NCBI GenBank assembly: GCA_003165595.1
Contig: PLWQ01000025.1
Location: forward strand, 39,093 to 103,092
Reading direction: 5' to 3'
Origin: Fibrobacterota bacterium
GTDB taxonomy: Bacteria > Fibrobacterota > Chitinivibrionia > Chitinivibrionales > FEN-1185
Length of the DNA stretch: 64,000 nucleotides
The notes under the pieces are model-generated. The model worked only from the letters and a program-made list of their open reading frames with translations, had not been told where the DNA came from and searched no databases. The position numbers were made by a program, and so were the translations under genes. Of this stretch, positions 42,115 to 62,681 are shown one piece after another; the first letter of the stretch is position 1, and each line of letters starts with the position of its first letter.

Positions 42115-43338
42115 CTATAACAGCGGATTTACAACCCGCCCCATAAACAAAATGCTGCCGGTGGTGTTGTCACGGATCAGGAACAGGAAGGGGTGGTCGG
42201 CGCGGAAGAGATGTGGTTTATAATAATATACTCGGGCGCACCGCAGTCCCACCACGACGGCGGTAGCCGCCGCGGCTTCGGTGCCTTCTTCGTTCACATC
42301 GACAAATGCCTTGTGAATGACCTCGGAAATCTTGAGGTCTTTGTTACTACTCATGCCGGAAAAATCCGCTGACTCCTCGCTAAAAGCATCGGTTATTCCC
42401 ATTTTCTGAAGAACCTTCTTGAGCACACATTCGCGCCTGGTCGTGAATTTCGGAAGATAGACTACAACCTTTTCCTGACGCATGCCGGAACATAATGAAT
42501 CCAACAATTCGGCGCGAATTTCCTTTTCGAAATCACCAAGCCCTGTTTTCGTCCTCGGCAAAATCACAATCATGGACAATTCCCTTCCCGCATAAGGCAT
42601 ATCGAGGATTTGAACCGACTTGTTTTCACCGTACCCGAATTCCTTTTCGCCCGTGTTCATCATATTCAACTTTACCGAATCTCTTGCACTCACCCAGAAC
42701 GGCATCTCCTTAGTCTTCGCCGTATCAAACTTTGTCGCCCACGCCCCCTTGAAGTAAATCGCATTTGCAAGAACCATTCGTGTTGAGGCATCCAAGACTC
42801 CCGGCCGAATCAATTCCTTGATCTTGTCGTTCGTCCTCCTCTCAACCCACGTATTTATCTTTGCCCTAGCCTTTTCTGCTTCATTTTTGTAGTCCGCGTA
42901 GTTAAGCTCCGCCCCATAATTCTTCCCCGTCATTTCAAGAAACTCAGCCAAGAATTTGTAATCCTTCTGCATCCACAAACTGTTCGCCACACTCAGTTTC
43001 ACGTTCCCTTGCCTCTGCGCCTCGTTGATCCCGGCCTGGAGTTTCCCGAATCCTTCGTGAAATGCCGTCTCATTCTTCCCGAAATGCAGCACCCGCATCA
43101 TCTGTTTCCCGGTATTTCCCCGCGCACCGGCATAGGTCATTGCAAGAGCCGTGGATATGCTGTACGGCGAGAAAAAGATATTGCCTTCGGCAGATTTCAG
43201 CTGGGCATACAGATCGAACGCAAACGCGTTGTTGCCGGCGACAATGGCGGATAGACCTGCCTCCTGCTGGCCAAGAGCCAGGCATGCCGGCAACAAACAA
43301 AGGACCACCGCATTTGACAGTATTCCGCGCTTTTTCAC
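42115..43338 (-). CDS. serpin-family serine protease inhibitor (secreted)
   Basis: Start set to GTG 43338 (GGGAGG 6 nt upstream), giving 407 aa with signal peptide MKKRGILSNAVVLCLLPACLA. NIFFSPYSISTALAMTYAGARG, FKGAWATKF, and the hinge/RCL GTEAAAATAVV. Confidence 0.85.
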   Translation of the reverse strand: MKKRGILSNAVVLCLLPACLALGQQEAGLSAIVAGNNAFAFDLYAQLKSAEGNIFFSPYSISTALAMTYAGARGNTGKQMMRVLHFGKNETAFHEGFGKLQAGINEAQRQGNVKLSVANSLWMQKDYKFLAEFLEMTGKNYGAELNYADYKNEAEKARAKINTWVERRTNDKIKELIRPGVLDASTRMVLANAIYFKGAWATKFDTAKTKEMPFWVSARDSVKLNMMNTGEKEFGYGENKSVQILDMPYAGRELSMIVILPRTKTGLGDFEKEIRAELLDSLCSGMRQEKVVVYLPKFTTRRECVLKKVLQKMGITDAFSEESADFSGMSSNKDLKISEVIHKAFVDVNEEGTEAAAATAVVVGLRCARVYYYKPHLFRADHPFLFLIRDNTTGSILFMGRVVNPLL

Positions 43339-43527
43339 GGTGAACCTCCCTTGTTGCCTCAAGTCCTTTATGTCCACCTGTAAATATCGATCGCTCGCTT
43401 GCCCAAAGCAAATTTCATCTACCTTCTTCCCAAACAATCCTTCGCCATTGTAGAATATAGAATGGGTAACAGCGGTTTTGGAAACCCCGGAATGCGTTGT
43501 TTTCTTCCTCATTGCAAAGCTGCTATC

Positions 43528-45522
43528 ATGCCGAAAGAAAAAATCATCATCCGCCCGCAGGACACAAAGACCGTCCAGCTTCCCGGCACCGTGGCCCTGC
43601 CGGACGGCAAGCGGCCCGTTAAGCTCGGGTCCGGCACCATAACCTCGCTCATCAGCGCCGGCGGCATGGCTATAGTTTATGAGATCTGGAACCAGGAACT
43701 TGAGGTGAAGCGGGCGGTGAAGCTTCTGAAGCCCGATCACTCACTCGAATCCGAAGAGCGGTTCCATACCGAGATGAAGATCACGGCCAAGCTGCACCAC
43801 CCGAACATCGTTGAGATTTACACCGTAGGAACCTGGAGCGACCTGCCGTACATAGAAATGGAGCTCATCGACGGAATCACGCTCGAAGAGCTCGTTGAAG
43901 AAGCGGGCGGGCTGCCGCCGGAGGTGTGCACGTCCATCGGCATCATGGTGGGCCGTGCGCTCAACTATGCGCATAACCAGAACTACGTTTTGTACGGCAA
44001 GCGATACCAGGGCGTTATCCACCGCGACCTGAAGCCGGGAAATATCATGGTGGCGCGCGACGGTATTGCAAAACTCATGGATTTCGGCATTGCCAAGCCC
44101 ATGACGGCCAGCATTCACACCATGGAAGGCATGGTAATGGGTACCATGCAATACCTTGCGCCCGAACAGCTCGACGGCAAAGAGGTTGACGTGCGCGCCG
44201 ACCTCTACTCCCTGGGCACCGTGCTGTACGAAATGCTCACTGGCGTGCGCGCCTTTCCGGAAGAGAAACTGGGCAAGCTCGTGACGGACAAGCTGGCCAA
44301 CAACTGCACGCCGCTCACGGATTTCTCGGTCAGAATACCTCCTTCACTTGTCGGTCTGGTCCACCACTGCATCAGGTACGAAAAGGAAAAGCGCATCCAG
44401 AATTCCCTGGAATTTTTGCGCGCCATCTGCCGGATTCACAAGACGCTCACGCTCAAAGCTCCCGAGCAGGTCCTCGAACAGTACCTTGCAACGAGGACGC
44501 GGGAAAAGCGTGTGGTGCGAATCCGCAGGAGGAGCATTTTTGTTCCGGCCATCCTGTGGAGCGTCACCGGCCTTGCGCTGGCGGCAGTCGCGACGCTGGT
44601 GGCGCTGCACTTTAGAGACCCGGCAATGGCCCGCAAAACGGTTGCGGAAATCAACGCCCGTTTGCAGCCGCTGATTGCAAGAATTGTTTCCGTGCGCGAG
44701 GCTGCCAATGCCCCGATCACGGGGTCCGAAGGGGCATCCGTTGATTCACTGCTTGCCTTGCAGATGCCCGCGCGGGCCAAGGACGTTGTTTCACAGATGC
44801 AGAAGATCGACGGCGCGGAAACGGACAGTCTTGTTGACACACTGCAAAAGAAGCGGCGGCTTTCCCCTGCCAACAGTCCCGGTCCGGATGCGCGCAGGCC
44901 TGCGGCCGCTTTTCCGAGGGCGGTTTTTCGCACGCCCGCAGCGGCAGCGAAGCCTGCGTTCGGCGCCGCGTCCCAGCCGCTCATGGACAGGCTTAAGCAG
45001 CAATTGCACACGTCGGATGTAATGACCCTGTTTGCGTCGGAAGTGGAGGCGGGACATTTTGCCAACGGCATTGCTCTTTACAAAATGCTTCCCGCCGGCC
45101 TGGCGGATTCGAAGAAGGCGCTCCTGTACAAGCTGCGGTCCCAGCGGGGCGTGGGCGACAACGAAGGCGTGAAGTACTTCCTGATTGCCAACGACGTCAA
45201 GGACGGAGAATTCTATCTGGAAAAGGCCCGCTGGTATTACACCTCAAAAGACTATGCCCAGGCCTACCAGTATGTCCAGCGGGCCGCCGTATCGCCGGCC
45301 CAGTTTCTGGATTCCCGCGCCTTCCGGGAGACTTTGCTGTATTCCAAGGCCCTCTGCACCAGTGCCCTGTACGATGCCGCACCCGGTGCCGATACTAAGA
45401 AAGAGGCGATGGAGGCCTGGTTCGATGTGAAATCGCTTTTCAAGACGGCTCCCGAGCACCGGTATTACGTAAAGGCGGATTCGGAAATCAGGAGGATCAG
45501 CGCAAGCGTGGCGGCCAGGTAA
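43528..45522 (+). CDS. membrane-anchored Hanks-type serine/threonine kinase with extracytoplasmic helical-repeat domain
   Basis: Start trimmed to ATG 43528; 664 aa. AVKLLKP, HRDLKPGNIMV, DFGIAKP, YLAPEQ. One TM helix (IFVPAILWSVTGLALAAVATLVAL). The C-terminal part is TPR-like. Confidence 0.85.
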   Translation: MPKEKIIIRPQDTKTVQLPGTVALPDGKRPVKLGSGTITSLISAGGMAIVYEIWNQELEVKRAVKLLKPDHSLESEERFHTEMKITAKLHHPNIVEIYTVGTWSDLPYIEMELIDGITLEELVEEAGGLPPEVCTSIGIMVGRALNYAHNQNYVLYGKRYQGVIHRDLKPGNIMVARDGIAKLMDFGIAKPMTASIHTMEGMVMGTMQYLAPEQLDGKEVDVRADLYSLGTVLYEMLTGVRAFPEEKLGKLVTDKLANNCTPLTDFSVRIPPSLVGLVHHCIRYEKEKRIQNSLEFLRAICRIHKTLTLKAPEQVLEQYLATRTREKRVVRIRRRSIFVPAILWSVTGLALAAVATLVALHFRDPAMARKTVAEINARLQPLIARIVSVREAANAPITGSEGASVDSLLALQMPARAKDVVSQMQKIDGAETDSLVDTLQKKRRLSPANSPGPDARRPAAAFPRAVFRTPAAAAKPAFGAASQPLMDRLKQQLHTSDVMTLFASEVEAGHFANGIALYKMLPAGLADSKKALLYKLRSQRGVGDNEGVKYFLIANDVKDGEFYLEKARWYYTSKDYAQAYQYVQRAAVSPAQFLDSRAFRETLLYSKALCTSALYDAAPGADTKKEAMEAWFDVKSLFKTAPEHRYYVKADSEIRRISASVAAR

Positions 45523-52009: not shown

Positions 52010-52792
52010 ATGATAAACCGGTGCCGCGGCAGGAAGATCAAGCTGCAGGGCTTCAACAGTCTCACCAAGTCTCTCAGTTTCAACATTTACGACATCTGCT
52101 ATGCCCGGTCGAAAGCGTCGCAGAACGACTACCTTGCCCACATCGACGAAGTGTACAATTCGAAGAAGATCCGCACAATCCTCGAAGAAGTCACCAGGAT
52201 CATTGAGGCGAACATCATCAACATGTCGAGCCAGGACTACGAACCGCGCGGTGCGTCGGTGACCGTTCTCATCAACGAGGGGCACCTGTCGGTGCCGCAG
52301 GAGACCGTTGCGCATCTTGACAAGAGCCATATTTCGGCCCACACCTACCCCGAAACCAACCCGGTAACGGGCATAAGCACCTTTCGCGTGGACATCGACG
52401 TCACCACGTGCGGCACGATTTCGCCCCTGCGGGCCCTCGATTTTCTTATTGACAATTTCGATTCCGACATCGTGTTGATGGACTACAAGGTGCGCGGATT
52501 CACGCGCGACGTTCACGGCCGCAAGATTTACATGGACCACGATATCACCTCGATTCAGGATTACATTTCCGACGAGATTCTGGACATCTACAGCGCCTAT
52601 GACATCAATATCGTGTCGGATAATATTTTTCACACCAAGATGATGCAGCGCAAGTTCAATCTCGAGAACTACCTGTTCGGACCCGAAAGCCAGTCGCTCA
52701 CGGGGTCGGCCCGCTCCAAAATCTCAAGCCTCCTGCGCAGGGAGATGCTTGAGATTTTCCAATGCAAGAACATCTATACCTACGACGCATAA
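52010..52792 (+). CDS. speD: S-adenosylmethionine decarboxylase proenzyme (E. coli-type, class 1B)
   Basis: 260 aa. Collinear with E. coli SpeD as I recall it: KLQGFNSLTKSLSFNIYDICY, the self-cleavage site region LDKSHISAHTYPE, and DYKVRGFTRD. Confidence 0.9.
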   Translation: MINRCRGRKIKLQGFNSLTKSLSFNIYDICYARSKASQNDYLAHIDEVYNSKKIRTILEEVTRIIEANIINMSSQDYEPRGASVTVLINEGHLSVPQETVAHLDKSHISAHTYPETNPVTGISTFRVDIDVTTCGTISPLRALDFLIDNFDSDIVLMDYKVRGFTRDVHGRKIYMDHDITSIQDYISDEILDIYSAYDINIVSDNIFHTKMMQRKFNLENYLFGPESQSLTGSARSKISSLLRREMLEIFQCKNIYTYDA

Positions 52793-52793
52793 C

Positions 52794-53735
52794 ATGAATT
52801 CTTCCGGATTCCTCCGCTCCCGCAGGGCCACGCAGCACACCGAGTGGCTCAACAATAATACCGGGTTCTTCTACACGATCAAGCGGCGCCTGCAATTCGG
52901 CGCCACGAAGTATCAGACACTCGAACTCGTTGACACAAACGAATTCGGCCGCGTGCTGATCCTCGACGGCATCACGCAGGCCGCGCAGAAGGGCGAGTGC
53001 TACTATCACGAGCCCATGGTGCACCCGGCCATGTGCACGCATACCTGCCCGCGAAGGGTCCTCGTTATCGGGGCCGGAGACGGCGGCATCATCCGCGAGG
53101 TGCTCAAGTATCCGTGCGTGAAATCCGTTGACCTTGCCGAACTCGACGACGGCGTTATCGCGTTTTCGAGGAAATACCTGCCGTCCGTGCACCAGGGCGC
53201 GTTCGACGATCCCCGGGTCCGGATTCACATTACGGACGGCCGCGAGTTTGTGGAAAGGAACCCGTTGAGCTTCGACATGGTGATCATGGACATGACCGAC
53301 CCGTTCGGGCCTGCAAAATATCTGTACACCAAGGATTTCTTTCTGTTGGTAAAAAAATCGTTTATCGACCGCCGCGGCGTTTTTGCCATGCACACCGAAT
53401 CGCCGGTAGCGCGGCCGCGCACCTTTGCCTGCATCCAGAGCACGCTTCGGTCGGTGTTTCGCCACGTTCGGCCGCTGTATTCCTATATCCACATGTATGC
53501 GACGCTGTGGTCGATAACCGTGTCGTCGGATGTATCTGACATGACCGCCGTTTCCCGGGCCCGGGTCGACAAGAAGCTGTTGCGCTACGGCATCAAGGAC
53601 CTCCGGTTTTACACGGGCCGCATCCACGAATCCAGCCAGGCGTCGTGGCCGTTGCTTGAGGAATTGCTCGAGAAACCCGCCCGAATCCTTACCGACCGGC
53701 GCCCGGACATACCCGACGAAATCGCCCACGAGTGA
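52794..53735 (+). CDS. spermidine-synthase-family aminopropyltransferase, divergent paralog
   Basis: ATG 52794, 1 nt after the speD stop; 313 aa. VLVIGAGDGGIIREVLKY and VIMDMTDPFGP are present. The usual TERDE(F/Y)IYHE reads AAQKGECYYHE. Confidence 0.8.
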   Translation: MNSSGFLRSRRATQHTEWLNNNTGFFYTIKRRLQFGATKYQTLELVDTNEFGRVLILDGITQAAQKGECYYHEPMVHPAMCTHTCPRRVLVIGAGDGGIIREVLKYPCVKSVDLAELDDGVIAFSRKYLPSVHQGAFDDPRVRIHITDGREFVERNPLSFDMVIMDMTDPFGPAKYLYTKDFFLLVKKSFIDRRGVFAMHTESPVARPRTFACIQSTLRSVFRHVRPLYSYIHMYATLWSITVSSDVSDMTAVSRARVDKKLLRYGIKDLRFYTGRIHESSQASWPLLEELLEKPARILTDRRPDIPDEIAHE

Positions 53736-53843
53736 TGTTGTGAGAATGTGGTTAAGGCGTGTTGTGCCGCCCCTACGTAACGTATATTTGATATCCTTTT
53801 TACGTTCCCCTTTCAGAAAGGCGCGCGGCAGAGCTTCTGCCCT

Positions 53844-54944
53844 ATGGATTTTGCAAAACTGAACAAACTCGTTTCGGTCCACGGCACGCCGTCTCTTTTT
53901 CTATCGCAAAGCAGGCTTCGCGAGAGCTATCGGTCTCTGGCCTATGCTTTGCCGGGCGTGGAGCTTTTTTATGCCGTCAAGTCCAATGCCCAGCCGGAGA
54001 TCATCGATATCCTCCAGCAGGAGGGCAGCCTGTTCGACATCTGCACCAACGGCGAGATCGATATCGTCAAGCAATGCGGCGTGCCTGCGGAAAAGTGCAT
54101 GCACACGCACCCCATCAAACGCGATTCGGACATCCGCTATGCGCTCGATTTCGGCGTGACGCTCTTTGTCGTGGACAACGAATTCGAACTCTCGAAATTT
54201 CTCCTGTACAAGGACCGCGCCAGGCTCCTGGTCCGCATGAGCGTCCAGAACCCCTCTTGCATGGTAAACCTGTCGCACAAGTTCGGATGCGCTCCCACCC
54301 AGACATTCTCGCTTATCGAAAAGGCGCACGGCATGGGCCTTTCCGTTGCCGGCATCAGCTTCCATGCCGGTTCACAAAACGAGAATCCCCTTAAATACAT
54401 CGAGGCGCTTGATTTCTGCAGGGACATCTGCCGCAAGGCCGCGCTCAACGGCATAATCCTGAACACCATCGACATCGGCGGCGGATTTCCCATTAACTAC
54501 CTGAATCCCGTGCTGCCCATTCAGCGGTTCTGCCAGCCCATCAACGAATATCTCGAGCGGTACTTTTCCAACTATCGCATTATTGCCGAGCCGGGCAGGG
54601 TGCTGTCCGGGCCATGCATGGTGCTTGCCGCGCGGGTGATGGGCAAGTCCTTGCGCAGCGGCGTGTGGTGGTATTACCTTGACGAAGGATTGTACGGTTC
54701 GTTTTCGGGCAAAATGTTCGACCATGCCGACTACCCGCTTCTTGTACCACGGTCGGGCGAGACGTTCAATTCGGTCCTGGCCGGGCCGACCTGCGACTCG
54801 ATAGACGTGCTGTACGAGAACATCGCGCTTCCGCAGCTTGAGATCGGCGACGTGCTGCTGTTTGATTCCATGGGCGCCTACACCACCGCGAGCGCGACCA
54901 CGTTCAACGGATTTCCAAAAGCGAAAATTGTCGTTATTGACTGA
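53844..54944 (+). CDS. fold-type III PLP-dependent decarboxylase (ornithine/lysine/arginine decarboxylase-like)
   Basis: 366 aa. FYAVKSN (PLP lysine), HAGSQ, IGGGFP, AEPGR, GPTCDSID. Confidence 0.85.
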   Translation: MDFAKLNKLVSVHGTPSLFLSQSRLRESYRSLAYALPGVELFYAVKSNAQPEIIDILQQEGSLFDICTNGEIDIVKQCGVPAEKCMHTHPIKRDSDIRYALDFGVTLFVVDNEFELSKFLLYKDRARLLVRMSVQNPSCMVNLSHKFGCAPTQTFSLIEKAHGMGLSVAGISFHAGSQNENPLKYIEALDFCRDICRKAALNGIILNTIDIGGGFPINYLNPVLPIQRFCQPINEYLERYFSNYRIIAEPGRVLSGPCMVLAARVMGKSLRSGVWWYYLDEGLYGSFSGKMFDHADYPLLVPRSGETFNSVLAGPTCDSIDVLYENIALPQLEIGDVLLFDSMGAYTTASATTFNGFPKAKIVVID

Positions 54945-54962
54945 TAGAAATATAACAAAGAT

Positions 54963-55101
54963 TCACCACAGAGGCACAGAGACACAGAGAGCGCGGAGAT
55001 GAAGAAGTTACAAATTAGAGATTCAAGATTAAAAATTTCTAATCTTTAATTTTCAATCTTTAATCCGTTTTTTCTCGGTGTCCTCTGTGTCTCTGTGGTG
55101 A
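54963..55101. repeat. inverted pair of diverged TCACCACAGAG... repeats flanking an AT-rich core (long hairpin)
   Basis: Plus-strand arm TCACCACAGAGGCACAGAGACACAGAGAGCGCGGAG... starts at 54963. The minus-strand arm reads TCACCACAGAGACACAGAGGACACCGAGAAAAAACGG (55101 down to 55066). It lies entirely in the 185-nt gap between the decarboxylase gene and speE. Confidence 0.8.
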
Positions 55102-55129
55102 GAATTTCTTCTACCTGAAGGAATCTCTT

Positions 55130-56002
55130 ATGGAAACAACTCCTCGGTACGAAACCGGAACCAATGCCTCTTTGTGGCTGGAGAACCTCGTTAACGGCCT
55201 CGCCGGCATTTCCATCCGCGCAAAGCACGCCCTGTACTACGGCGCCAGCCCCTTCCAGAAGATCGAAGTGTTCCACACCTACGCGTTCGGCAAGGTACTT
55301 GTGCTCGCCGACAACATAGTGCTTACCGAGCGCGACGAATACATCTACCACGAGTCGATCGCGCACCCGGCCATGAACATGCACCACGATCCGCGCCGTG
55401 TGTGCGTCATCGGCGGCGGGGACGGCGGGGTGCTGCGGGAGGTGCTCAAGTACAAGGACGTGGACACCGCCCTCGTGGTCGAAATTGACAAAATGGTCAA
55501 AGAGGCGGTCGTGGCCCATTTCCCCGCGCTCGCAAAATCGTTCGCCGACAAGCGGAGCCGTGCCGAATTCGCCGAAGGCTGCTCGTACCTGACGAAATCG
55601 AAGGAACTGTTCGACGTGATCCTCGTTGATTCCTATGATCCGGGCGGGCCGGTGCAGTCTCTGGAAACCACCGATTTTTACAAACTCGTGTACGACCGGC
55701 TCGACAAAGGCGGCATCGCGGTGTTCCAGACCGATTCACCCACTATCCGGGGCGAGTACCTGCGTTCAACGGTGGCCACAATATCGTCGCTTTTTAGCGC
55801 ATTCAAGTTGTATACCTGTACCATGCCCTCGTTCCCCGAGGGCATGTGCAGCTTCGTGATTTGCGCCAAAGACGGTGCTGATCTTGATAAATTCAACGAC
55901 AAACGGTATTCGTCCGTTGCCAAGCGCTGCCATTATTACAATGCAGACATTCACCGCGGCGCGTTTCTGCTGCCGGAATATATCAAGAAAATAATCGCCT
56001 AA
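55130..56002 (+). CDS. speE: spermidine synthase (canonical aminopropyltransferase)
   Basis: 290 aa. LTERDEYIYHESIAHP, VCVIGGGDGGVLREVLKY, ILVDSYDPGGP, and C-terminal YYNADIHRGAFLLP. Confidence 0.9.
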   Translation: METTPRYETGTNASLWLENLVNGLAGISIRAKHALYYGASPFQKIEVFHTYAFGKVLVLADNIVLTERDEYIYHESIAHPAMNMHHDPRRVCVIGGGDGGVLREVLKYKDVDTALVVEIDKMVKEAVVAHFPALAKSFADKRSRAEFAEGCSYLTKSKELFDVILVDSYDPGGPVQSLETTDFYKLVYDRLDKGGIAVFQTDSPTIRGEYLRSTVATISSLFSAFKLYTCTMPSFPEGMCSFVICAKDGADLDKFNDKRYSSVAKRCHYYNADIHRGAFLLPEYIKKIIA

Positions 56003-56008
56003 GTCCAG

Positions 56009-56102
56009 CACCTCACCCTATCACCCCGCCCTTCGGGCACCCCTCTTCCCCTCTCCTTGCCAAGGAGAGGGGAAGAGGGGCTGGGGGAGAAGGGGTGAGG
56101 TG
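56009..56102. repeat. nested GC-rich inverted repeat (17-bp perfect inner stem)
   Basis: Inner stem CCCCTCTTCCCCTCTCC (56040-56056), loop TTGCCAA, GGAGAGGGGAAGAGGGG (56064-56080). Outer arms CACCTCACCC (56009-56018) / GGGTGAGGTG (56093-56102). No T-tract follows. Confidence 0.7.
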
Positions 56103-56124
56103 TGAGACGGAAGAAAGATCCTCC

Positions 56125-56718
56125 ATGCCCAACCCTGCAAAGACCGACTTCGAAATACACCCTCTCCTGAAGAATCGCTACAGCCCGCGTGCATTTCTCG
56201 ACAAGCCGATCGAATCTGCCGTGCTCCGGCGGATTTTCGAGGCAGCCCGATGGTCTGCCTCGTGCCGCAACGACCAGGAATGGTTCTACGTTGCGGGGAT
56301 AAGGAACCAGGGCCCTGCATTTGAGCGAATATGCTCCGTTCTCACCCCGAAGAACCAGGAATGGGCCGCGCACGCGGCCATTCTCGCGATTCTGTGCGGA
56401 CGCGTGACCTTTGCCGACGGCACGACGCCCAACAAGTGGCATGCCTACGATTGCGGCCAGTCCGCGGCCCACCTTACCTTTCAGGCCGCGGCCGAGGGAG
56501 TTTCCGTGCATCAGATGGGCGGATTCGACGCGCAGAAAGCGATAGCCGAGCTTTCTGTTCCAGGCGGATTTCTGCCCCTTGCGGCTATCGCCATGGGCTA
56601 TGCCGGCGATCCCGCTTCGCTTCCGGAACAACTTTCCAAATGGGAAGTTGCGCCGCGAACACGGCGGCCGCAGGCTGAGTTTGTGTTTGACGGCGCCTGG
56701 GGCAAGGCGCTGGAGTGA
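56125..56718 (+). CDS. nitroreductase-family protein
   Basis: ATG 56125; 197 aa. LLKNRYSPRAF...ILEAARWSASCRNDQEW is the nitroreductase N-terminal pattern. Confidence 0.8.
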   Translation: MPNPAKTDFEIHPLLKNRYSPRAFLDKPIESAVLRRIFEAARWSASCRNDQEWFYVAGIRNQGPAFERICSVLTPKNQEWAAHAAILAILCGRVTFADGTTPNKWHAYDCGQSAAHLTFQAAAEGVSVHQMGGFDAQKAIAELSVPGGFLPLAAIAMGYAGDPASLPEQLSKWEVAPRTRRPQAEFVFDGAWGKALE

Positions 56719-57138
56719 TATGGGCGGTTCGAGCATATGAGCACCTTCAACAAATCAAGTTTTTACGACTCCTTCCCTGCATTCCGCGCCATCCCATCCT
56801 TAGCATTATAACCGCACCTGCGCGCAGATCTGACACCAAAGGCCGCCGGCAAACCTAAAAAAAAAGGCTTTTCTGGTCTTTAGGGGAACCACAAGATGTG
56901 GTGTCGCATCAGTCAAGTTGCGCTCGCCGCGGCTTTGCCTCTGTCCCCGATGATTTACAAGGCATAAGCACGATCTCCGTAGTATTGACGATTAGACCCA
57001 ATTCACGTAACGCATTGCTTTATATAGAGTTTGATGTCGGCGACAGGTCCGGCGAGCGTCAAACTACAATAGGTTGCGCTCTTCCGGCAAAAACGCGCTG
57101 CTGAAAAAATAGTATTATGAATATGTTTTATTTTTCTA

Positions 57139-57167
57139 TTGACATTCTTTCAAGTTGGCCATATAAT
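57139..57167 (+). promoter_or_regulatory. consensus sigma-70-type promoter (TTGACA-17 nt-TATAAT)
   Basis: TTGACA at 57139-57144, a 17-nt spacer, TATAAT at 57162-57167. It sits about 205 nt upstream of the first fimbrial subunit ATG. The 10-bp palindrome TAAGCGCTTA lies at 57178-57187. Confidence 0.55.
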
Positions 57168-57373
57168 TACATTTGCTTAAGCGCTTAGATTGAAGTACTA
57201 GAAACGCGCAGCCTAAGAAAAAGTCACCGAACGCATGAAATCAACCAAAAGATATTCGGGGAAGCCCATCAAAGAAGGGGGTGAACGGTAGCAACAAAAA
57301 CACACAGCAGTGCGCAATCGCGCGAGAATGATCAGAGGTCTTGTTTTTGACATTTCACCCAAAGGAGAGACTC

Positions 57374-57953
57374 ATGAATACGCTCAAAAAAATGGCAATC
57401 GCCCTTTCAGTCGTCGCAGTAGTGGGAGCCCCGATAATGGCCGGACAGTATGGAGGTTGGAGGTAACATTCCTCTCGTGAGCACGATTGTCGGCGTCGGC
57501 GTGCTGTCCCTGGACCTTAGCAGCCCGGGCAACATGGTGAATATCGCCGCATTCATTGTAAACGAGAATGATGCAAGTTTCACCGTGAACTGGACTCTTG
57601 GAAATCAGGGCGTTTTTAAGACTTCCGGCGGGCAATCAATCGCAATGTCCGATGCGTCAATCGTGGAAGGCCTGGCAACCGGTACCGGCAGCTATGTTGC
57701 TGGAACCGCCCTTGCCCGCAAGTTTATCAAAGGCACACCGGAGAAAGTCCTCACCGCCGCAGAGATTACCGCTGATGCTGATGGAACACTTACAGGCGAT
57801 CTGAATGCAGTTGCCGGCCTCACCTGGACCGACAACCAGACAGCTGCGACCATCGATGATGAAATCTTCTTGAATGCGTCCTGGGCTACCAACAAGACCG
57901 CGTTGTACGGGCTGTATCTGGAAACAATTACCTACACTATTGTTGCGAACTAA
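57374..57953 (+). pseudogene. fimbrial (chaperone-usher-type) subunit, frameshifted by a 7-bp tandem duplication
   Basis: ATG 57374 (AAGGAG upstream) encodes a signal peptide, MNTLKKMAIALSVVAVVGAPIMAGQYGGWR, and stops at 57464-57466. The 167-aa body ORF (57450-57953) is in the +1 frame. TGGAGGT occurs twice in tandem (57451-57457 and 57458-57464). Deleting one copy fuses the two frames (…AGQYGGNIPLVSTIVG…). Confidence 0.6.
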
Positions 57954-57984
57954 ACCGTTCAGCCTAGTCCAACTTTCAGTAAAA

Positions 57985-58010
57985 AGAGGGCATCATGCCC
58001 TCTTTTTTTT
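57985..58010 (+). terminator. Rho-independent terminator after the first subunit gene
   Basis: AGAGGGCA-TCA-TGCCCTCT (57985-58003) followed by T7 (58004-58010). It starts 32 nt after the stop codon. Confidence 0.65.
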
Positions 58011-58016
58011 ATGCTC

Positions 58017-58046
58017 TTGTAAGTTCGCTGTCCGCATTTATATAAT
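58017..58046 (+). promoter_or_regulatory. possible internal promoter (TTGTAA-18 nt-TATAAT)
   Basis: TTGTAA at 58017-58022 and TATAAT at 58041-58046. It lies just after the terminator and 138 nt before the second subunit gene. Confidence 0.35.
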
Positions 58047-58183
58047 TGATATGTTGTTAAATGACGCGGGGCTCACCCCGGTCTTGGCCCAGGGTTTGTT
58101 GAACTCACGCATCTTCCGGGCGGGCGTGTTCGCGTGCGCCCCAAGCCCTTTGAAGCTGCGGAACAATCTTCGGAAACTGAAGC

Positions 58184-58708
58184 ATGCGCAGGGATTCTCT
58201 TGCCTTTTGCATACTGCTAGCGATTGTCTCGTCCGCATATCCGGCCGATACCCTATATCATCATCAGGACCCCGGATTCCTGAATGACCTGGAATGGCAG
58301 TCAAACACGACCCTTGATTTCACCGGCCCAGGCTCCGATCAGCCCATTGCAACGTTTGTCGTCAACAGCAATGCCGCGGCGGGATTCCAGATAACCTTTC
58401 AATTTACAAACGGTGGAATATTCAGCAGCGGCACGGGAAGCGGGATTCCCATGGCATCACTCACGCTTCACTATGTAAGCGGCACCTTGGGTAGCCAGCT
58501 CACTCAGTTTGACCAGGGCTACAACATCCTTCAGGTCGTCACTCAGCCCGACGCCCAATACGTCTGGAACCCGGCCCAGAGCGCCAAACCGCAAACAAAG
58601 ACGGTGAATTATATCTTTCAGTTGAGGGCGAGTTGGAACACTCCCGTAAGAATGCTCAAGGGCATATATTTGGAACGGATAAAAGCAACCATTGATACGA
58701 CACAATAG
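58184..58708 (+). CDS. fimbrial subunit paralog (secreted)
   Basis: 174 aa with signal peptide MRRDSLAFCILLAIVSSAYPA. Shares (A/T)F(I/V)VN.N.A..F.(V/I)..........G(V/I)F and the C-terminal G(L/I)YLE.I...I strand with the 57450-57953 body. Confidence 0.55.
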   Translation: MRRDSLAFCILLAIVSSAYPADTLYHHQDPGFLNDLEWQSNTTLDFTGPGSDQPIATFVVNSNAAAGFQITFQFTNGGIFSSGTGSGIPMASLTLHYVSGTLGSQLTQFDQGYNILQVVTQPDAQYVWNPAQSAKPQTKTVNYIFQLRASWNTPVRMLKGIYLERIKATIDTTQ

Positions 58709-58735
58709 TGGCGAACCATAGGGAAAAGGGGCAAA

Positions 58736-59545
58736 ATGAGAACGCGAAAAATCACGGGGATCGGGGCATTGGCGGTTCTACCAAGTCTATTTCTGTCTAG
58801 TCCGGTTTTTGCGGGGTATTCCATGGCGCCCCTGGTGACGATCCTGGACCCTTCGGCCAACAACACAAGCGCGGAAGTCGTTATAAAATCCGAGAAGGGC
58901 GATGCCAAAATTCCTCTGGCCATAGAACTAAAAGTTAAAGGCCGGGAAGTGTCGCTTGACGGCTCGACGGTCCTGTATCACGACGACAAATCCGCGAGTA
59001 ATTTTCTGGTATATCCTTCTCAGATCGTGCTCATGCCTGGTGAAAGCCATCGGGTCCAGATAAAGTGGGTCGGCGACGCCATTCCCAAGAAGGAATTTTC
59101 GTACGGTCTCATCGCGGAACAGGCGCCTGTCAAGCTTGGCGACGAGGACAAGCCTCGCACAAGGGCCGAAGGCAGGCTCATCATTCTCGCGAGGTACGAG
59201 GGCATTATCCTGGTGCAGTGCAAAGGCTGCAAACCCAACGTTGTGGTTGATTCGGCGGGGCCCATGCCGGATTCATCGGGCAAAACGCGTTTATCGGTCC
59301 TGCTCAACAATACCGGCAGCGCCAGGCAGATGTTGGCGGGAATAAAGCTGCAAGTCACACCTGTTGACAAAGACGGAAAGATCCTCATCAATCAGGCCGT
59401 TGTGTACAGGCCCGTGATTCCTGATGTTCAGACGCGGCAGAAACTCTATGCCGGGTTTCGCCGCCGGCTCGTCATTCCCTGGCCCGAAAATGTTCCCGTG
59501 GGGCCGGTGAAGGTGACCGTGATGTTCGAGCAGGAGAAGGAATGA
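58736..59545 (+). CDS. periplasmic fimbrial chaperone (PapD-like)
   Basis: 269 aa with a signal peptide. Two Ig-like halves. SNFLVYPSQIVLMPGESHRVQIKWVG resembles the PapD_N F-strand region. Confidence 0.65.
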   Translation: MRTRKITGIGALAVLPSLFLSSPVFAGYSMAPLVTILDPSANNTSAEVVIKSEKGDAKIPLAIELKVKGREVSLDGSTVLYHDDKSASNFLVYPSQIVLMPGESHRVQIKWVGDAIPKKEFSYGLIAEQAPVKLGDEDKPRTRAEGRLIILARYEGIILVQCKGCKPNVVVDSAGPMPDSSGKTRLSVLLNNTGSARQMLAGIKLQVTPVDKDGKILINQAVVYRPVIPDVQTRQKLYAGFRRRLVIPWPENVPVGPVKVTVMFEQEKE

Positions 59546-62496
59546 CCGCCCGTGTCCCTGGCGCTCGTTCTTGCCGAATCTGCCGGGGGCCGACGGCATC
59601 CCTTGTCCTTCGCGCATTCCTGCTCGCTGTCCTCACGGCAGTCCCTCTTTCGGTTTTCGCGCAGAAAAACCCGCAATCATCGCCCGCCGCCGCGAAGGAC
59701 AGCGTAGGCGGGGCATCTCAGCTGTCCCACGGCAAAGACACGAGCGTGCAGGCCGCTTCTCCCCCTGCTGTGGAATCGGACAAGCGCCGCATGGAAGAGA
59801 TATTTACAAATAAGAGCCGCGAACAGCTCTACCAGGAGTATTTTCACACCGCCCCGCCCAAACAACCCAAGCAAATTCAGGCAACGCTCGTTGTCAACGA
59901 AGTGACCGACGGCCTCATAGACCTGGTCTATTCCGAAGACCGGCTTGATTTCTCAATGCCCGCGGCTCCGATTGTCAAGACGATGGCCGAAATAGTGAAA
60001 CCTGATTACCTGGATGAGGTGAAGGAAGGCATCGATTCCAGCGAAAGAATCACCCGGAAGTTTCTCATGGCCAATCTGGGGATTCAGGTGACCTACGACA
60101 ATCAAGCTTCTCAGGTAACGATCGTTGTTCCGGCTGCGTTCCTCAAGAAACAGATCAATGAAATCAACGGTACGTACCGGGAAAATCCCTATTCGGTGGA
60201 AACCACAAAACCGGACTTCGTTTCCGGGTTCCTTAATATTCAGGCCGACCAGAAACTGAGGTTCTATCAGGTTCTTTCAAAGGATACTGCCGGTTTGCTG
60301 AGCAGCATGACCCATGAACCCGTCCGCCAGCCGGTGTATTCAAATTTCGACGGCGCCATCAATGTCGAGCACGGCGTCCTGGAGGGCACTGCCCTGTTTC
60401 AGGAGGACAACAAGCCGGTTTTTGAGCGCCAGGACATGCGCCTCGTTTATGATTTTCCCAGGCAAAGCATACGGCTTTCCGCAGGGGACCTCCAGTACTT
60501 AACGTTTGGGTATATGTCAAGCGTTCGCATGGCGGGTCTGGGCATTGCCAAGGATTTTTCCCTCCAGCCTTACGTCCTCACGTATCCCGTGGGTGAGTAT
60601 CAGTTTTATCTTACCGAGGCGTCGCAGGCCGAGATATGGGTGAACGACGTCATGGTAAGCAAAATTATTCTTCAAGCCGGAACCCACGATGTGCGGGGTT
60701 TTCCGTTCTCCACCGGCAACAACAGGGTCAAAATCATTTTGACCGACTTTTCCGGACGCACGCAGACGATTGAGTTCAATTTCCTGTATCAACAGGCCCT
60801 GCTTGCAAAAGGGCTTGCCGAGTATTCCTTCAATGCCGGCTTTCCCCAGACCACACAGGAGCATTATTCCTATTATTTCGACGAGCCATCATTATCGTGC
60901 GCCTATCGACAGGGACTTACCAACAGACTCACCTTGGGAGCGTTCGCCCAGGCGTTCTCCCAGGGAGTCGCCGCGGGAACATTTTCGCACGGCATCGGGT
61001 CCGCAACATTTGTCCAGGACAGCAGTCTGGAACCTTCGATACGGTGCGCCGTTTTAGGAGGCGACGCACTGTACGCCATTCCCGTGGGTACAATTGAGCT
61101 GGGCGCGGCAGGAAGCTACGGGAAAGGCCAGGGGCCCGATGCCGCGGCTCGCCTCACCTTTAACTACATGTCGGACCTTTTCAACAATCGTACCGGTACA
61201 AACAAGAAGAACGCGCTTAGGCTCAGCGCGCCGATTACCTGGACGACTCAAGTGGAATACCTCGGCCCTAAATTCTTCAATGATCCGCGGAATTCTCGGT
61301 ACACACTGGACCGCGAAGGTTTGGACCTTTCTTCCAGTATCAACCTGTCGTTGGCCGACCAACTTAATATCAGCGCCGGCGGCAGATTCTACTTCCGGCG
61401 CGACACTACCAATTTCTTCGATTTGACCCTGACCGCCAACAAGACTTGGCTCAGGAATTTGCGGGTCAGCGCGTCGTTGGGACTTGCCTCGGAAGTGTAT
61501 TCGACACGCGCCAATCCCTATGCCATGCTCAGCCTTTCGTATACCTTCCGTAATGGAAACAATGATTTCTTCGCCAACGACGCAATCACAAAGCAGCCGT
61601 TGCCGACCGCGGCGCAATTATCGCAGACCGGTACGTCCGCCACCCAGGCCGAGTGGGGAAACCATGCGGGCCTGAGCTGGAATTACGATGACCCTACGCC
61701 GAGGCCGGAAAAGCCCACCGCTTCGGTAAGCACCGATTTTGATCAGGATTTGAACGACTACAACGCAAGTTTGGGATATACATGCAACCAGGGAACGGTT
61801 CAGATCCAGCACGACGTTAACGAACCCCTGAACTCGGGCGCCGATTACCTGCGCCATCAGACCGACATAACCCTCAAGACTGCATTGGTTTGCACAGACA
61901 AGGCAGTCTGCCTTTCCAGGCCGATTTACGGCGGCGGATTTGTTCTTGCCAAGGGCGTTAAAAGCCTGAGCGACGACAAGATCATGATCAATCCCAACCC
62001 GCAGGGGTATGATGCCACCACCACTATTTTGGGGCCGGCCGTGCTGCCGCTCTTTGAGTCGTACGATTTGAAACGAATAAGGGTTGAGCCACAGAACCCG
62101 TCGCTGGGCTCCGTGACCGAAAAGAATGCATTTACCTTGTTCCCTCAGTACAAGAGCGGGTTTTCAATCGCGGTCGGCTCGGACAAGAAGATCCTTGTCA
62201 CGGGACAACTGCTTGATTATGACGACAGCTCCTTTGCGTATCAGGCCATAACGATAATAAGGGTTGGAGCCAAGAAGCCCGATTCCGTCAGTACCTTCAC
62301 CAACGGCGCCGGTCGTTTCCAATGCCTCGGCGTCGTGGCCGGTACCTACGAAATTCTGGCTTCAGACAGCACAAACCGCGAACCGATCACTTTTAAGGTT
62401 CCCAAGACCTCCAAAGAATTCTGCAGCATCGGGCAACTCAAGTTCTCTACGGAAGAAGGCGGCGCGGCTCCCGACAGGAAGGGTGCACACCAGTAG
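59542..62496 (+). CDS. outer-membrane fimbrial usher-like protein
   Basis: 984 aa; ATGA overlap with the chaperone gene; signal peptide ...LSVFAQ. IRLSAGDLQYLTFGYMSSVRMAGLGIAKDFSLQP resembles the conserved usher plug/barrel-entry segment. The body is long and beta-rich. Confidence 0.65.
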   Translation: MTARVPGARSCRICRGPTASLVLRAFLLAVLTAVPLSVFAQKNPQSSPAAAKDSVGGASQLSHGKDTSVQAASPPAVESDKRRMEEIFTNKSREQLYQEYFHTAPPKQPKQIQATLVVNEVTDGLIDLVYSEDRLDFSMPAAPIVKTMAEIVKPDYLDEVKEGIDSSERITRKFLMANLGIQVTYDNQASQVTIVVPAAFLKKQINEINGTYRENPYSVETTKPDFVSGFLNIQADQKLRFYQVLSKDTAGLLSSMTHEPVRQPVYSNFDGAINVEHGVLEGTALFQEDNKPVFERQDMRLVYDFPRQSIRLSAGDLQYLTFGYMSSVRMAGLGIAKDFSLQPYVLTYPVGEYQFYLTEASQAEIWVNDVMVSKIILQAGTHDVRGFPFSTGNNRVKIILTDFSGRTQTIEFNFLYQQALLAKGLAEYSFNAGFPQTTQEHYSYYFDEPSLSCAYRQGLTNRLTLGAFAQAFSQGVAAGTFSHGIGSATFVQDSSLEPSIRCAVLGGDALYAIPVGTIELGAAGSYGKGQGPDAAARLTFNYMSDLFNNRTGTNKKNALRLSAPITWTTQVEYLGPKFFNDPRNSRYTLDREGLDLSSSINLSLADQLNISAGGRFYFRRDTTNFFDLTLTANKTWLRNLRVSASLGLASEVYSTRANPYAMLSLSYTFRNGNNDFFANDAITKQPLPTAAQLSQTGTSATQAEWGNHAGLSWNYDDPTPRPEKPTASVSTDFDQDLNDYNASLGYTCNQGTVQIQHDVNEPLNSGADYLRHQTDITLKTALVCTDKAVCLSRPIYGGGFVLAKGVKSLSDDKIMINPNPQGYDATTTILGPAVLPLFESYDLKRIRVEPQNPSLGSVTEKNAFTLFPQYKSGFSIAVGSDKKILVTGQLLDYDDSSFAYQAITIIRVGAKKPDSVSTFTNGAGRFQCLGVVAGTYEILASDSTNREPITFKVPKTSKEFCSIGQLKFSTEEGGAAPDRKGAHQ

Positions 62497-62681
62497 ACAG
62501 CGCAATCGCATGGGCCAAGCATCGCGCCGGAATTCTTACCTTTGCACAAGCGGACAGCTCGTCTGGCGCCGTCAAGCCCCGGGCCGCCGAGCCGGACACG
62601 TCCGAACCGGGCATCACGATACCGGACACCACAAAATCCGGCGACACGAAAAAGAGCCTTGACATAAAGTAAGGTCGGTGA

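What the first reader, a model, noticed from the sequence alone, without database searches (positions are those of the whole stretch)
57374..57953. Perfect 7-bp tandem duplication separates the first fimbrial subunit from its signal peptide
Seen in the sequence:
- ATG 57374, with a good AAGGAG site, encodes a textbook signal peptide (MNTLKKMAIALSVVAVVGAPIMA-GQ...) and stops after 30 codons at 57464-57466.
- The 167-aa subunit body starts in the +1 frame at 57450. It has no signal peptide and no ribosome-binding site.
- The heptamer TGGAGGT is present twice in direct tandem at the junction (57451-57457 and 57458-57464).
- Removing one copy gives a continuous ORF, ...IMAGQYGGNIPLVSTIVGVGVLSLDL... 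Its mature N-terminus has the alternating hydrophobic pattern expected of a donor strand.

Inference: the interruption is a 7-bp duplication. It could be an inactivating mutation, a population variant captured by the assembly, or a slipped-strand ON/OFF switch for the major subunit.
Basis: seen in the sequence. Interest (0 to 1): 0.65.

Follow-up and report, generated by a model that had tools for sequence, protein, structure and literature searches.

The report
One-base insertion splits a pilin gene
The first pilus-subunit gene of an uncultivated peat bacterium is broken by a single extra T (window 57449), not by the 7-bp repeat next to it, and an otherwise identical strain without that T, with the gene intact, lives in the same kind of habitat, so this is an ordinary loss-of-function variant.

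Summary
The inferred cause is wrong.

- **Homologues.** Three homologous genes have the window's length minus one base between the signal peptide and the GGN motif. Twelve more family proteins have the same five-residue spacing there (14 proteins in all). The two heptamers are ordinary coding sequence (GAG GTT GGA GGT = EVGG).
- **Intact allele.** Contig L018, from another public run, matches the window over 6,495 bp with no mismatch. It differs by two one-base gaps: T57449 and one T of the terminator T-run. It encodes an intact 192-aa pilin precursor.
- **Other runs.** The T-less allele, always with both heptamers, appears in contigs of three runs labelled DNA and four metatranscriptomes. A fourth DNA run holds an intact variant. 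The T allele is in seven DNA runs (several independent assemblers) and one RNA run. No one-copy heptamer allele was seen.
- **Site.** T57449 lies in no repeat, so slipped-strand switching is not supported.
- **Operon.** The genes are subunit, subunit, chaperone, usher. The chaperone model is CsuC/CfaA/FimC-like and the usher passes Pfam's threshold. The operon is conserved in Fibrobacterota MAGs.

Verdict: a recent one-base frameshift allele of the major pilin, segregating in peat populations. Low to moderate interest.

The parts
57139..57167 (+). Sigma-70-type promoter-like site, TTGACA-17-TATAAT, upstream of the pilin gene
   Evidence: 12 of 12 consensus matches. The RNA contig of run X8 begins at 57191, just downstream. 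Function is inferred.
57362..57367 (+). Ribosome-binding site AAGGAG, six bases before ATG 57374
   Evidence: Read directly from the sequence.
57374..57953 (+). Major pilin (first subunit) gene, frameshifted allele. Without T57449 it is one 192-aa ORF.
   Evidence: The repaired product equals P0099, encoded by L018. It is 56-58% identical over its full length to P0002 and P0003. The family has 63 representative clusters.
57374..57466 (+). ORF1: signal peptide (23 aa, ...PIMA|GQ) plus 7 residues, then stop TAA 57464-57466
57449..57449 (+). The lesion: one inserted T (CAG T ATG). It is absent from intact alleles and from homologues.
   Evidence: '57449 left out, 1' in contigs of X8 and X12, X11 and X13, X15 and X20. 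X17 has a clipped end GCCGGACAG abutting 57450. L018 is identical over 6,495 bp except for this T and one T at 58003-58010. The homologue DNA alignment agrees.
57451..57464 (+). TGGAGGT TGGAGGT: native coding sequence (GAG GTT GGA GGT = E V G G), not a duplication event
   Evidence: Kept in all intact alleles. The second G is invariant and the first nearly invariant in the 37-sequence family alignment. One haplotype has 57464 T>C, so the repeat is imperfect there.
57450..57953 (+). ORF2: pilin body (167 aa) in the +1 frame, without signal peptide or RBS
   Evidence: AF2 model pLDDT 81.7, a beta-sandwich. Weak fold matches, mostly to donor-strand pilins.
57981..58010 (+). Intrinsic terminator (12-bp stem, T-run) after the pilin gene. 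The T-run is T8 here and T7 in L018.
   Evidence: RNA contigs stop at about 57970 and none covers 58012-58800.
58184..58708 (+). Second subunit (174 aa, own signal peptide), a paralogue of the first
   Evidence: 26% identical to subunit 1 with shared motifs. Conserved at the same position in related loci.
58736..59545 (+). Periplasmic pilus chaperone (269 aa)
   Evidence: No Pfam or PDB sequence hit. AF2 model pLDDT 84. Foldseek top hits are CsuC, CfaA, EcpB, Caf1M, FaeE, FimC and PapD, E down to 1.7e-11.
59542..62496 (+). Outer-membrane usher (984 aa)
   Evidence: PF00577 Usher, 35.5 bits against a gathering score of 27.1, E 6.8e-9. It is 36-53% identical to the ushers of related loci.

Best explanation
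The window carries a loss-of-function allele of the major subunit gene of a divergent chaperone-usher-type pilus operon (subunit 1, terminator, subunit 2, chaperone, usher). The organism is an uncultivated peat bacterium; its nearest relatives by the chaperone are Chitinivibrionales/Fibrobacterota MAGs.

A single T inserted at 57449, between codon CAG (Gln, +2 of the mature protein) and codon ATG (Met, +3), shifts the frame. Translation from the good start at 57374 then yields only the signal peptide plus GQYGGWR and stops at 57464. The body ORF has no export signal and no ribosome-binding site. A cell with this allele therefore cannot export this subunit or build a fibre from it (inferred).

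The adjacent TGGAGGT-TGGAGGT is unaltered ancestral coding sequence for Glu-Val-Gly-Gly. The insertion is recent. An intact allele survives on a background identical over 6.5 kb, and more distant haplotypes are also intact. The intact alleles are transcribed in peat metatranscriptomes.

The site is not a repeat tract. The two states are best read as an ordinary mutation segregating in the population, not a programmed switch.
For: 1. DNA alignment at the junction. L001 reads CAG TTG CAA ACT GGT GGT AAC. L002 reads CAG ATG CAA ACT GGT GGT AAC. A co-occurring strain reads GAG ATG GAA ACC GGC GGT AAC. The window reads CAG T ATG GAG GTT GGA GGT AAC, exactly one base longer.
2. Protein level. All 14 family members examined have five residues between the signal-peptide -1 residue and the GGN motif. 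The minus-T repair gives five (GQMEV). The minus-7 repair gives three and needs a gap.
3. L018 (8,953-nt contig of another run) equals window 56051-62545 with 0 mismatches and two one-base gaps, T57449 and one T of the T-run at 58003-58010. It encodes the intact 192-aa protein. That protein is on record as P0099.
4. '57449 left out' with both heptamers kept appears in runs labelled DNA (X11, X13, and X17 by a clipped end) and in RNA runs (X8, X12; X15, X20). The X24 variant reads AGQLEVGG in frame.
5. The T allele is real. It stands identically in contigs of X1-X6 and X9 and in JGI, ENA and Logan assemblies L003-L007 and L017, at word depths of 2.8-29. It is also in an RNA contig of X10.
6. 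Operon identity. The usher passes Pfam's threshold. The chaperone fold matches chaperone-usher chaperones. The four-gene order is conserved in eight Fibrobacterota-type MAG loci and in L001.
7. Gene 1 has a 12/12 consensus promoter and a strong terminator, and RNA contigs cover only gene 1. This fits a highly expressed major subunit.
Against: - All older runs are available only as assembled contigs. Within-sample allele frequencies and rare variants, including a rare one-copy heptamer allele, cannot be seen.
- The run type 'DNA?' is the tool's guess.
- That subunit 1 is the major, fibre-forming pilin is inferred from gene order, the terminator and RNA coverage. The subunit's fold match to donor-strand pilins is weak (best E 3e-3, none at or below 1e-3).
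- Loss of function is inferred, not measured. Low-level frameshifting or re-initiation cannot be excluded.
Confidence: 0.9

Rival explanations
1. One reading: a 7-bp tandem duplication of TGGAGGT interrupted the gene, and the ancestral sequence had one copy (...AGQYGGNIPL...).
For: The duplication is exact and sits inside the 29-base stretch where a repair restores the frame. About 0.004 such tandems are expected there by chance. Removing one copy does restore an ORF.
Against: Every intact allele and homologue keeps both units or their equivalent six codons, and lacks only T57449. The one-copy product would be two residues shorter than all 14 relatives examined. No 7-base deletion appeared in any run. 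In one haplotype the second unit is TGGAGGC.
Confidence: 0.02
2. A reversible ON/OFF (phase-variation) switch: the T is gained and lost at high frequency, or a heptamer copy is lost as a frame-restoring second-site change, so the population toggles pilus expression.
For: Both states occur on an otherwise identical 6.5-kb background. The T allele also appears on a contig with four downstream SNPs (X9). Pilin genes are classic targets of phase variation (established knowledge).
Against: T57449 lies in CAG[T]ATG, with no homopolymer or short repeat, so no slippage-prone substrate exists. Heptamer copy number never varies (all read-laying runs). No run's contigs showed both states on the window-identical background. 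The X9 pattern is as easily recombination or a chimeric low-depth contig (word depth 2.8).
Confidence: 0.05
3. The frameshift is bypassed. One route is +1 ribosomal frameshifting in the overlap, where GGAGGU-UGG-AGG-UAA-C has the prfB-like geometry of an SD-like element, three bases, a P-site codon and a stop. Another is correction in the RNA. Either would make full-length pilin from the T allele.
For: The geometry is visible in the sequence. It resembles the prfB site AGGGGG-UAU-CUU-UGA-C (established knowledge). A +1 shift anywhere in 57449-57466 gives a product of normal length. T-less sequence was first seen in RNA runs.
Against: The T is a recent, lineage-specific insertion, and orthologues have a plain ORF, so nothing has been selected for recoding. 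AGG to GGU re-pairing is poor. The product would replace the conserved Gly-Gly of GGN with Trp-Arg (the second Gly is invariant, the first nearly so). The T-less form stands in DNA-labelled runs and in an 8.9-kb contig spanning intergenic DNA. RNA contigs of X8 and X12 also carry two SNPs, so they are another strain. An RNA contig of X10 retains the T.
Confidence: 0.03
4. Sequencing or assembly artefact: the extra T does not exist in the organism.
For: Single-base indels are a common assembly error class. L018's other difference is a homopolymer length (T7 against T8), typical of such errors.
Against: The T allele was recovered identically by JGI, ENA (MEGAHIT-style k141 contigs) and Logan assemblies from at least seven runs of several studies, at depths up to 29. 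The site is not a homopolymer.
Confidence: 0.01

Closest known systems
Archaic (sigma) chaperone-usher pili, e.g. Acinetobacter baumannii Csu (CsuA/B-CsuC-CsuD)
   Same: - The operon holds small secreted subunits, a two-domain Ig-like periplasmic chaperone and an outer-membrane usher.
- The best structural matches of the chaperone model are CsuC chains, E 1.7e-11.
- The subunit model weakly matches CsuA/B among other donor-strand pilins.
   Different: - There is no sequence-level match. The subunits have no SCPU or any other Pfam domain, and the chaperone has no PapD-family Pfam hit and no PDB sequence hit.
- The usher matches only positions 290-523 of the Pfam profile.
- The phylum is different (Fibrobacterota-type MAGs).
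- The subunit family is small, 63 clusters at 50% identity among 1.84 billion representatives.
Frameshift-inactivated fimbrial subunit genes in host-adapted or laboratory enterobacteria (fimbrial pseudogenes of Salmonella Typhi, cryptic E. coli K-12 chaperone-usher operons); from established knowledge
   Same: A single small indel in a pilin gene silences the fibre while the rest of the operon stays intact. Intact alleles exist in close relatives.
   Different: Here the intact and broken alleles co-exist in environmental peat populations on an identical background. The organism is uncultivated, and neither the consequence nor any selective cause has been tested.
Slipped-strand phase variation of pilus and adhesin genes (Neisseria pilC poly-G, Haemophilus hif TA repeats, Bordetella fim poly-C); from established knowledge
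   Same: The ON and OFF states of a pilus gene differ by a small indel.
   Different: Those systems have a repeat tract whose copy number varies. Here the variable base lies in no repeat, and the nearby 2 x 7-bp repeat never varies.
prfB-type programmed +1 frameshifting; from established knowledge
   Same: An SD-like GGAGGU lies three bases before the last sense codon ahead of an in-frame stop, and the continuation is in the +1 frame.
   Different: There is no slippery P-site codon. The frameshift is not conserved, since orthologues are in frame. The insertion is recent.

Membership tests
Chaperone-usher pilus system (general) | Outer-membrane usher (Pfam PF00577) | tested here: met
   35.5 bits against a gathering score of 27.1, E 6.8e-9. 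Two stretches, the best at residues 583-852 on profile positions 290-523. No PDB sequence hit.
Chaperone-usher pilus system (general) | Periplasmic two-domain Ig-like (PapD-like) chaperone | tested here: met
   Met by fold only. AF2 gives pLDDT 84.1 and pTM 0.73, with two beta-sandwich domains. Foldseek finds 136 PDB hits at E<=1e-3, and all 50 listed are chaperone-usher chaperones (CsuC, CfaA, EcpB, Caf1M, FaeE, FimC, PapD). By sequence it fails: no Pfam, NCBIfam or PDB hit.
Chaperone-usher pilus system (general) | Subunits with an incomplete Ig-like fold and an N-terminal donor strand | tested here: inconclusive
   AF2 gives pLDDT 81.7 and an all-beta model. Foldseek's best E is 3e-3, with none at or below 1e-3. 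Most of the top hits are donor-strand subunits (Caf1, SafA, CfaB, CsuA/B, PsaA, archaeal TLP/CanA) at TM 0.3-0.5. The conserved N-terminal GGN-PL-N---G-G---LD segment fits a donor strand, but that is an inference.
Chaperone-usher pilus system (general) | Sec signal peptides on the subunits and the chaperone | tested here: met
   Read from the sequences: subunit 1 (intact allele), subunit 2 and the chaperone have N-terminal hydrophobic leaders. No dedicated predictor was run.
Archaic (sigma) chaperone-usher clade, Csu/SCPU type | Subunits carry the SCPU (spore coat protein U) domain | tested here: not met
   No Pfam family at E<=1 for either subunit and none in NCBIfam. Only the chaperone's best structural neighbour is CsuC. 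Not filed as a member.
Slipped-strand contingency (phase-variable) locus | A repeat tract whose copy number differs between ON and OFF alleles | tested here: not met
   The alleles differ by T57449 in the non-repetitive CAG[T]ATG. The heptamer count is 2 in every allele seen.
Programmed +1 ribosomal frameshift (prfB-like) | Frameshift site conserved in orthologues, with a slippery P-site codon | tested here: not met
   Orthologues and the sister allele have one continuous ORF. AGG to GGU re-pairing is poor (from the sequence). Only the geometry of SD-like element, three bases and a stop is present.

The most novel reading that the evidence does not exclude
The T57449 allele may be an adaptive loss-of-pilus variant rather than a neutral accident. 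One possible cause is escape from a phage or predator that uses this highly expressed, fast-evolving fibre. Under this reading it rose to dominance in the clone assembled from many peat samples over several years, while the intact allele persists and is expressed elsewhere through balancing or frequency-dependent selection. A weaker variant is that the prfB-like GGAGGU-UGG-AGG-UAA context allows leaky +1 read-through, so the allele is a knock-down and not a knock-out.
Probability: 0.12. Interest if true: 0.45.

Novelty: new member of a known kind. Interest (0 to 1): 0.25.

Why it matters
- **For annotation.** The gene should be recorded as a frameshifted pilin gene caused by one extra base at 57449, not as two ORFs and not as a duplication-based switch. 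Public gene calls currently give 167-aa or 158-aa fragments.
- **For method.** A perfect tandem repeat at a frame break is not proof of cause. Any indel of 3n+1 bases restores the frame, and only comparison with relatives tells which one is real.
- **For biology.** The locus is a clean natural pair of pilus-ON and pilus-OFF genotypes on an identical background, in an uncultivated Fibrobacterota-type lineage of peat and permafrost soils.
  - The pilin mRNA is visible in metatranscriptomes.
  - The operon belongs to a small chaperone-usher-like family that current domain libraries do not recognise at the subunit or chaperone level.
  - No paper in the searched library discusses chaperone-usher pili of Fibrobacter-type bacteria; the two that hold both search terms are reviews on other subjects.

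Tried and rejected
- **Metagenome pattern scan.** GCCGGACAGN{0,1}ATGGAGGTN{0,7}AACATTCCTCT was built to catch all four allele combinations. It found nothing, not even the window's own allele, so it is uninformative.
- **Species-representative genomes, subunit profile.** No relative found. The chaperone profile then gave eight loci.
- **Sequence searches for subunits and chaperone.** Pfam, NCBIfam and PDB gave no meaningful hit. Structure prediction was needed.
- **7-bp duplication.** Rejected on the homologue alignment and the intact alleles.
- **RNA-level correction.** Considered because T-less contigs first appeared in RNA runs. Rejected after T-less contigs were found in DNA-labelled runs and in the 8.9-kb contig L018.
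- **Assembly artefact.** Rejected because independent assemblies agree.
- **X23.** The contig alignment starts at 57450 with five unaligned leading bases. This suggests the T-less allele, but the bases are not shown, so it was not counted.
- **Literature.** Only two review papers on other subjects hold both 'chaperone-usher' and 'Fibrobacter'.

Full report
**1. The observation**

- ATG 57374, six bases after AAGGAG (57362-57367), opens a 30-codon ORF. It encodes a typical signal peptide (MNTLKKMAIALSVVAVVGAPIMA|GQ...) and ends at TAA 57464-57466.
- ATG 57450 opens a 167-aa ORF in the +1 frame, ending at 57953.
- TGGAGGT stands at 57451-57457 and again at 57458-57464. The period-7 match is exactly 14 bases.
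- Removing one copy gives a 190-aa ORF.

Exact 7-bp tandems are not rare in general: the window has 7, and about 4 are expected by chance. A frame repair can succeed only within 29 bases (57438-57466), and about 0.004 such tandems are expected there. Any deletion of 3n+1 bases restores the frame.

**2. What relatives show**

A search with the repaired protein found two full-length homologues, P0002 (195 aa, 58% identical) and P0003 (189 aa, 56%). I fetched their DNA as L002 and L001. The junction sequences are below.

| Source | Sequence at the junction |
|---|---|
| L001 | CAG TTG CAA ACT GGT GGT AAC |
| L002 | CAG ATG CAA ACT GGT GGT AAC |
| Co-occurring divergent strain (X3, X4) | GAG ATG GAA ACC GGC GGT AAC |
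| Window | CAG T ATG GAG GTT GGA GGT AAC |

- The window is one base longer than all three. Its +1 frame (M-E-V-G-G-N) is the homologous reading.
- The protein alignment needs no gap for the minus-one-base repair (AGQMEVGGNIPL). It needs a two-residue gap for the minus-seven repair (AGQY--GGNIPL).
- A profile search of 1.84 billion representatives found 63 family members.
- All 14 members I examined (P0002, P0003 and 12 more) have exactly five residues between the signal-peptide -1 position and the GGN motif. In the 37-sequence alignment the second Gly is invariant and the first nearly invariant.
- The heptamer pair is therefore ordinary coding sequence: GAG GTT GGA GGT.

**3. The intact allele exists**

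I laid the contigs of public runs on the locus.

| State at 57449 | Source | Runs or loci |
|---|---|---|
| T present | Runs labelled DNA | X1-X6, X9 |
| T present | JGI, ENA and Logan assemblies | L003-L007, L017 |
| T present | RNA contig | X10 |
| T absent, both heptamers kept | Metatranscriptome contigs | X8, X12 (only two other differences, 57627 and 57628) |
| T absent, both heptamers kept | Metatranscriptome contigs | X15, X20 (a haplotype about 96% identical) |
| T absent, both heptamers kept | Runs labelled DNA | X11, X13 |
| T absent, both heptamers kept | Run labelled DNA | X17 (contig exact from 57450, preceded by GCCGGACAG) |
| In frame, both heptamers kept | Run labelled DNA | X24 variant, ...GGC CAG CTG GAG GTT GGA GGT (AGQLEVGG) |

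The decisive case is L018, an 8,953-nt contig of run ERR11593882, found through the identical chaperone protein.
- It equals window 56051-62545 with no mismatch and two one-base gaps: T57449 and one T of the terminator T-run 58003-58010.
- It encodes MNTLKK...IMAGQMEVGGNIPLV..., 192 aa. This is exactly the minus-T repair, and that protein is on record as P0099.
- No run showed a 7-base deletion.
- In the X11, X15 and X20 haplotype the second heptamer is TGGAGGC.

**4. What the gene is**

- **Operon.** It runs subunit 1 (57374-57953), a strong terminator (57981-58010), subunit 2 (58184-58708, a 26%-identical paralogue), chaperone (58736-59545) and usher (59542-62496).
- **Usher.** It passes Pfam's Usher threshold (35.5 against 27.1 bits).
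- **Chaperone.** It has no sequence-level hit anywhere. Its AlphaFold model (pLDDT 84) matches only chaperone-usher chaperones, with CsuC, CfaA and EcpB first, then Caf1M, FaeE, FimC and PapD (E down to 1.7e-11).
- **Subunit.** The model (pLDDT 81.7) is a beta-sandwich. Its best matches are weak and are mostly donor-strand-exchange subunits (Caf1, SafA, CfaB, CsuA/B, PsaA, archaeal TLP/CanA; best E 3e-3).
- **Conservation.** The same gene order occurs in L001 and in MAGs labelled Chitinivibrionales, Fibrobacterota, Fibrobacter and Candidatus Raymondbacteria.
- **Expression signals.** A 12/12 consensus promoter lies at 57139-57167. RNA contigs run from 57191 to about 57970, and none covers the downstream genes. 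This fits a strongly expressed major subunit whose transcript mostly ends at the terminator.
- **Status of the claim.** That it is the major fibre subunit is an inference.

**5. Mechanism**

- **Shown.** One extra T separates the signal peptide from the body. The allele is real. An intact sister allele exists on an identical background. Contigs with either state stand in RNA runs.
- **Inferred.** The T allele yields only a 30-residue peptide. The body ORF has no RBS or export signal and gives no exported subunit. Cells with this allele therefore lack this fibre. The downstream genes are intact and are preceded by their own promoter-like site at 58017-58046.
- **Switching.** The base lies in CAG[T]ATG, not in a repeat, so slipped-strand switching has no substrate.
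- **Recoding.** The overlap does resemble the prfB site (GGAGGU, three bases, AGG, UAA). However, the insertion is recent, the P-site codon is not slippery, and a shifted product would lose the conserved Gly-Gly. I rate recoding at about 3%.

**6. Comparison and novelty**

- The system works like a chaperone-usher pilus. Structurally it is closest to the archaic Csu type, but it fails the sequence-level membership test for that clade because no SCPU domain is found. I do not file it there.
- The frameshift is of a well-known kind: a pilin pseudogene or null allele with intact alleles in sister strains.
- What is specific here is a natural ON/OFF pair on an identical 6.5-kb background in peat populations, in a small, undescribed subunit family.
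- The library holds only two papers with both 'chaperone-usher' and 'Fibrobacter', both reviews on other subjects.

**7. Verdict**

The gene is interrupted and this is a population variant, but the cause is one base, not seven, and there is no evidence for a repeat-based switch.
- Confidence in the one-base insertion explanation is about 0.9.
- Interest is 0.25.
- The main limit is that only assembled contigs were available, not raw reads, so within-sample allele frequencies are unknown.

Noticed in passing
window 58003-58010: The T-run of the terminator after the pilin gene is T8 in the window and T7 in L018. It is the only other difference in 6,495 bp. It may be a real homopolymer length variant linked to the intact allele, or an error in one assembly.
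   Followed up: partly
window 57343-57444 and onward; contigs of X3, X4, X20: A co-occurring strain is about 91% identical over the RBS and signal-peptide region. It then diverges beyond alignment after 57444 (...MAGEMETGGNVPL...). L016 is about 93% identical again from 57810 onward. The pilin body appears to evolve much faster than its flanks and faster than the chaperone (56-58% against 70% identity to L001).
   Followed up: partly
window 59542-62496: The usher is 984 aa. Ushers at related loci are 1,014-1,280 aa. Three of them (L010, L011, L014) show further matches to the C-terminal CarboxypepD_reg-like domain and have longer N-termini. The 984-aa form is shared by all contigs of this strain, so it is not a local truncation. 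Its meaning is open.
   Followed up: partly
window 57371-57700 (X9 contig): One low-depth contig combines the window's 5' part, including T57449, with four SNPs typical of the T-less 96% haplotype (57512, 57518, 57560, 57569). This is either recombination between strains or a chimeric contig.
   Followed up: no
window 42115-43740 (-): A 541-aa ORF with a full-length, very strong Serpin domain (PF00079, 431 bits) lies next to a Ser/Thr protein kinase gene at 43462-45522. The two ORF calls overlap, so one start is probably further in. Bacterial serpins are uncommon.
   Followed up: no
window 52010-56002: A polyamine cluster lies directly upstream of the pilus operon: AdoMet decarboxylase-like, ornithine/arginine decarboxylase and spermidine synthase, followed by a nitroreductase at 56095-56718.
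   Followed up: no
window 12665, 13508, 20820, 36405, 51926, 63234: Six other exact 7-bp tandem duplications occur in the window. I did not inspect them for any effect on reading frames.
   Followed up: no
L001 1-1681 and 8127-10703: In the 56%-identical homologous locus, the operon is flanked upstream by an ScmC-like gene and a weak Peptidase_S24 match. Downstream lie polysaccharide export genes (Poly_export, GNVR). The neighbourhood differs from that of the window.
   Followed up: no
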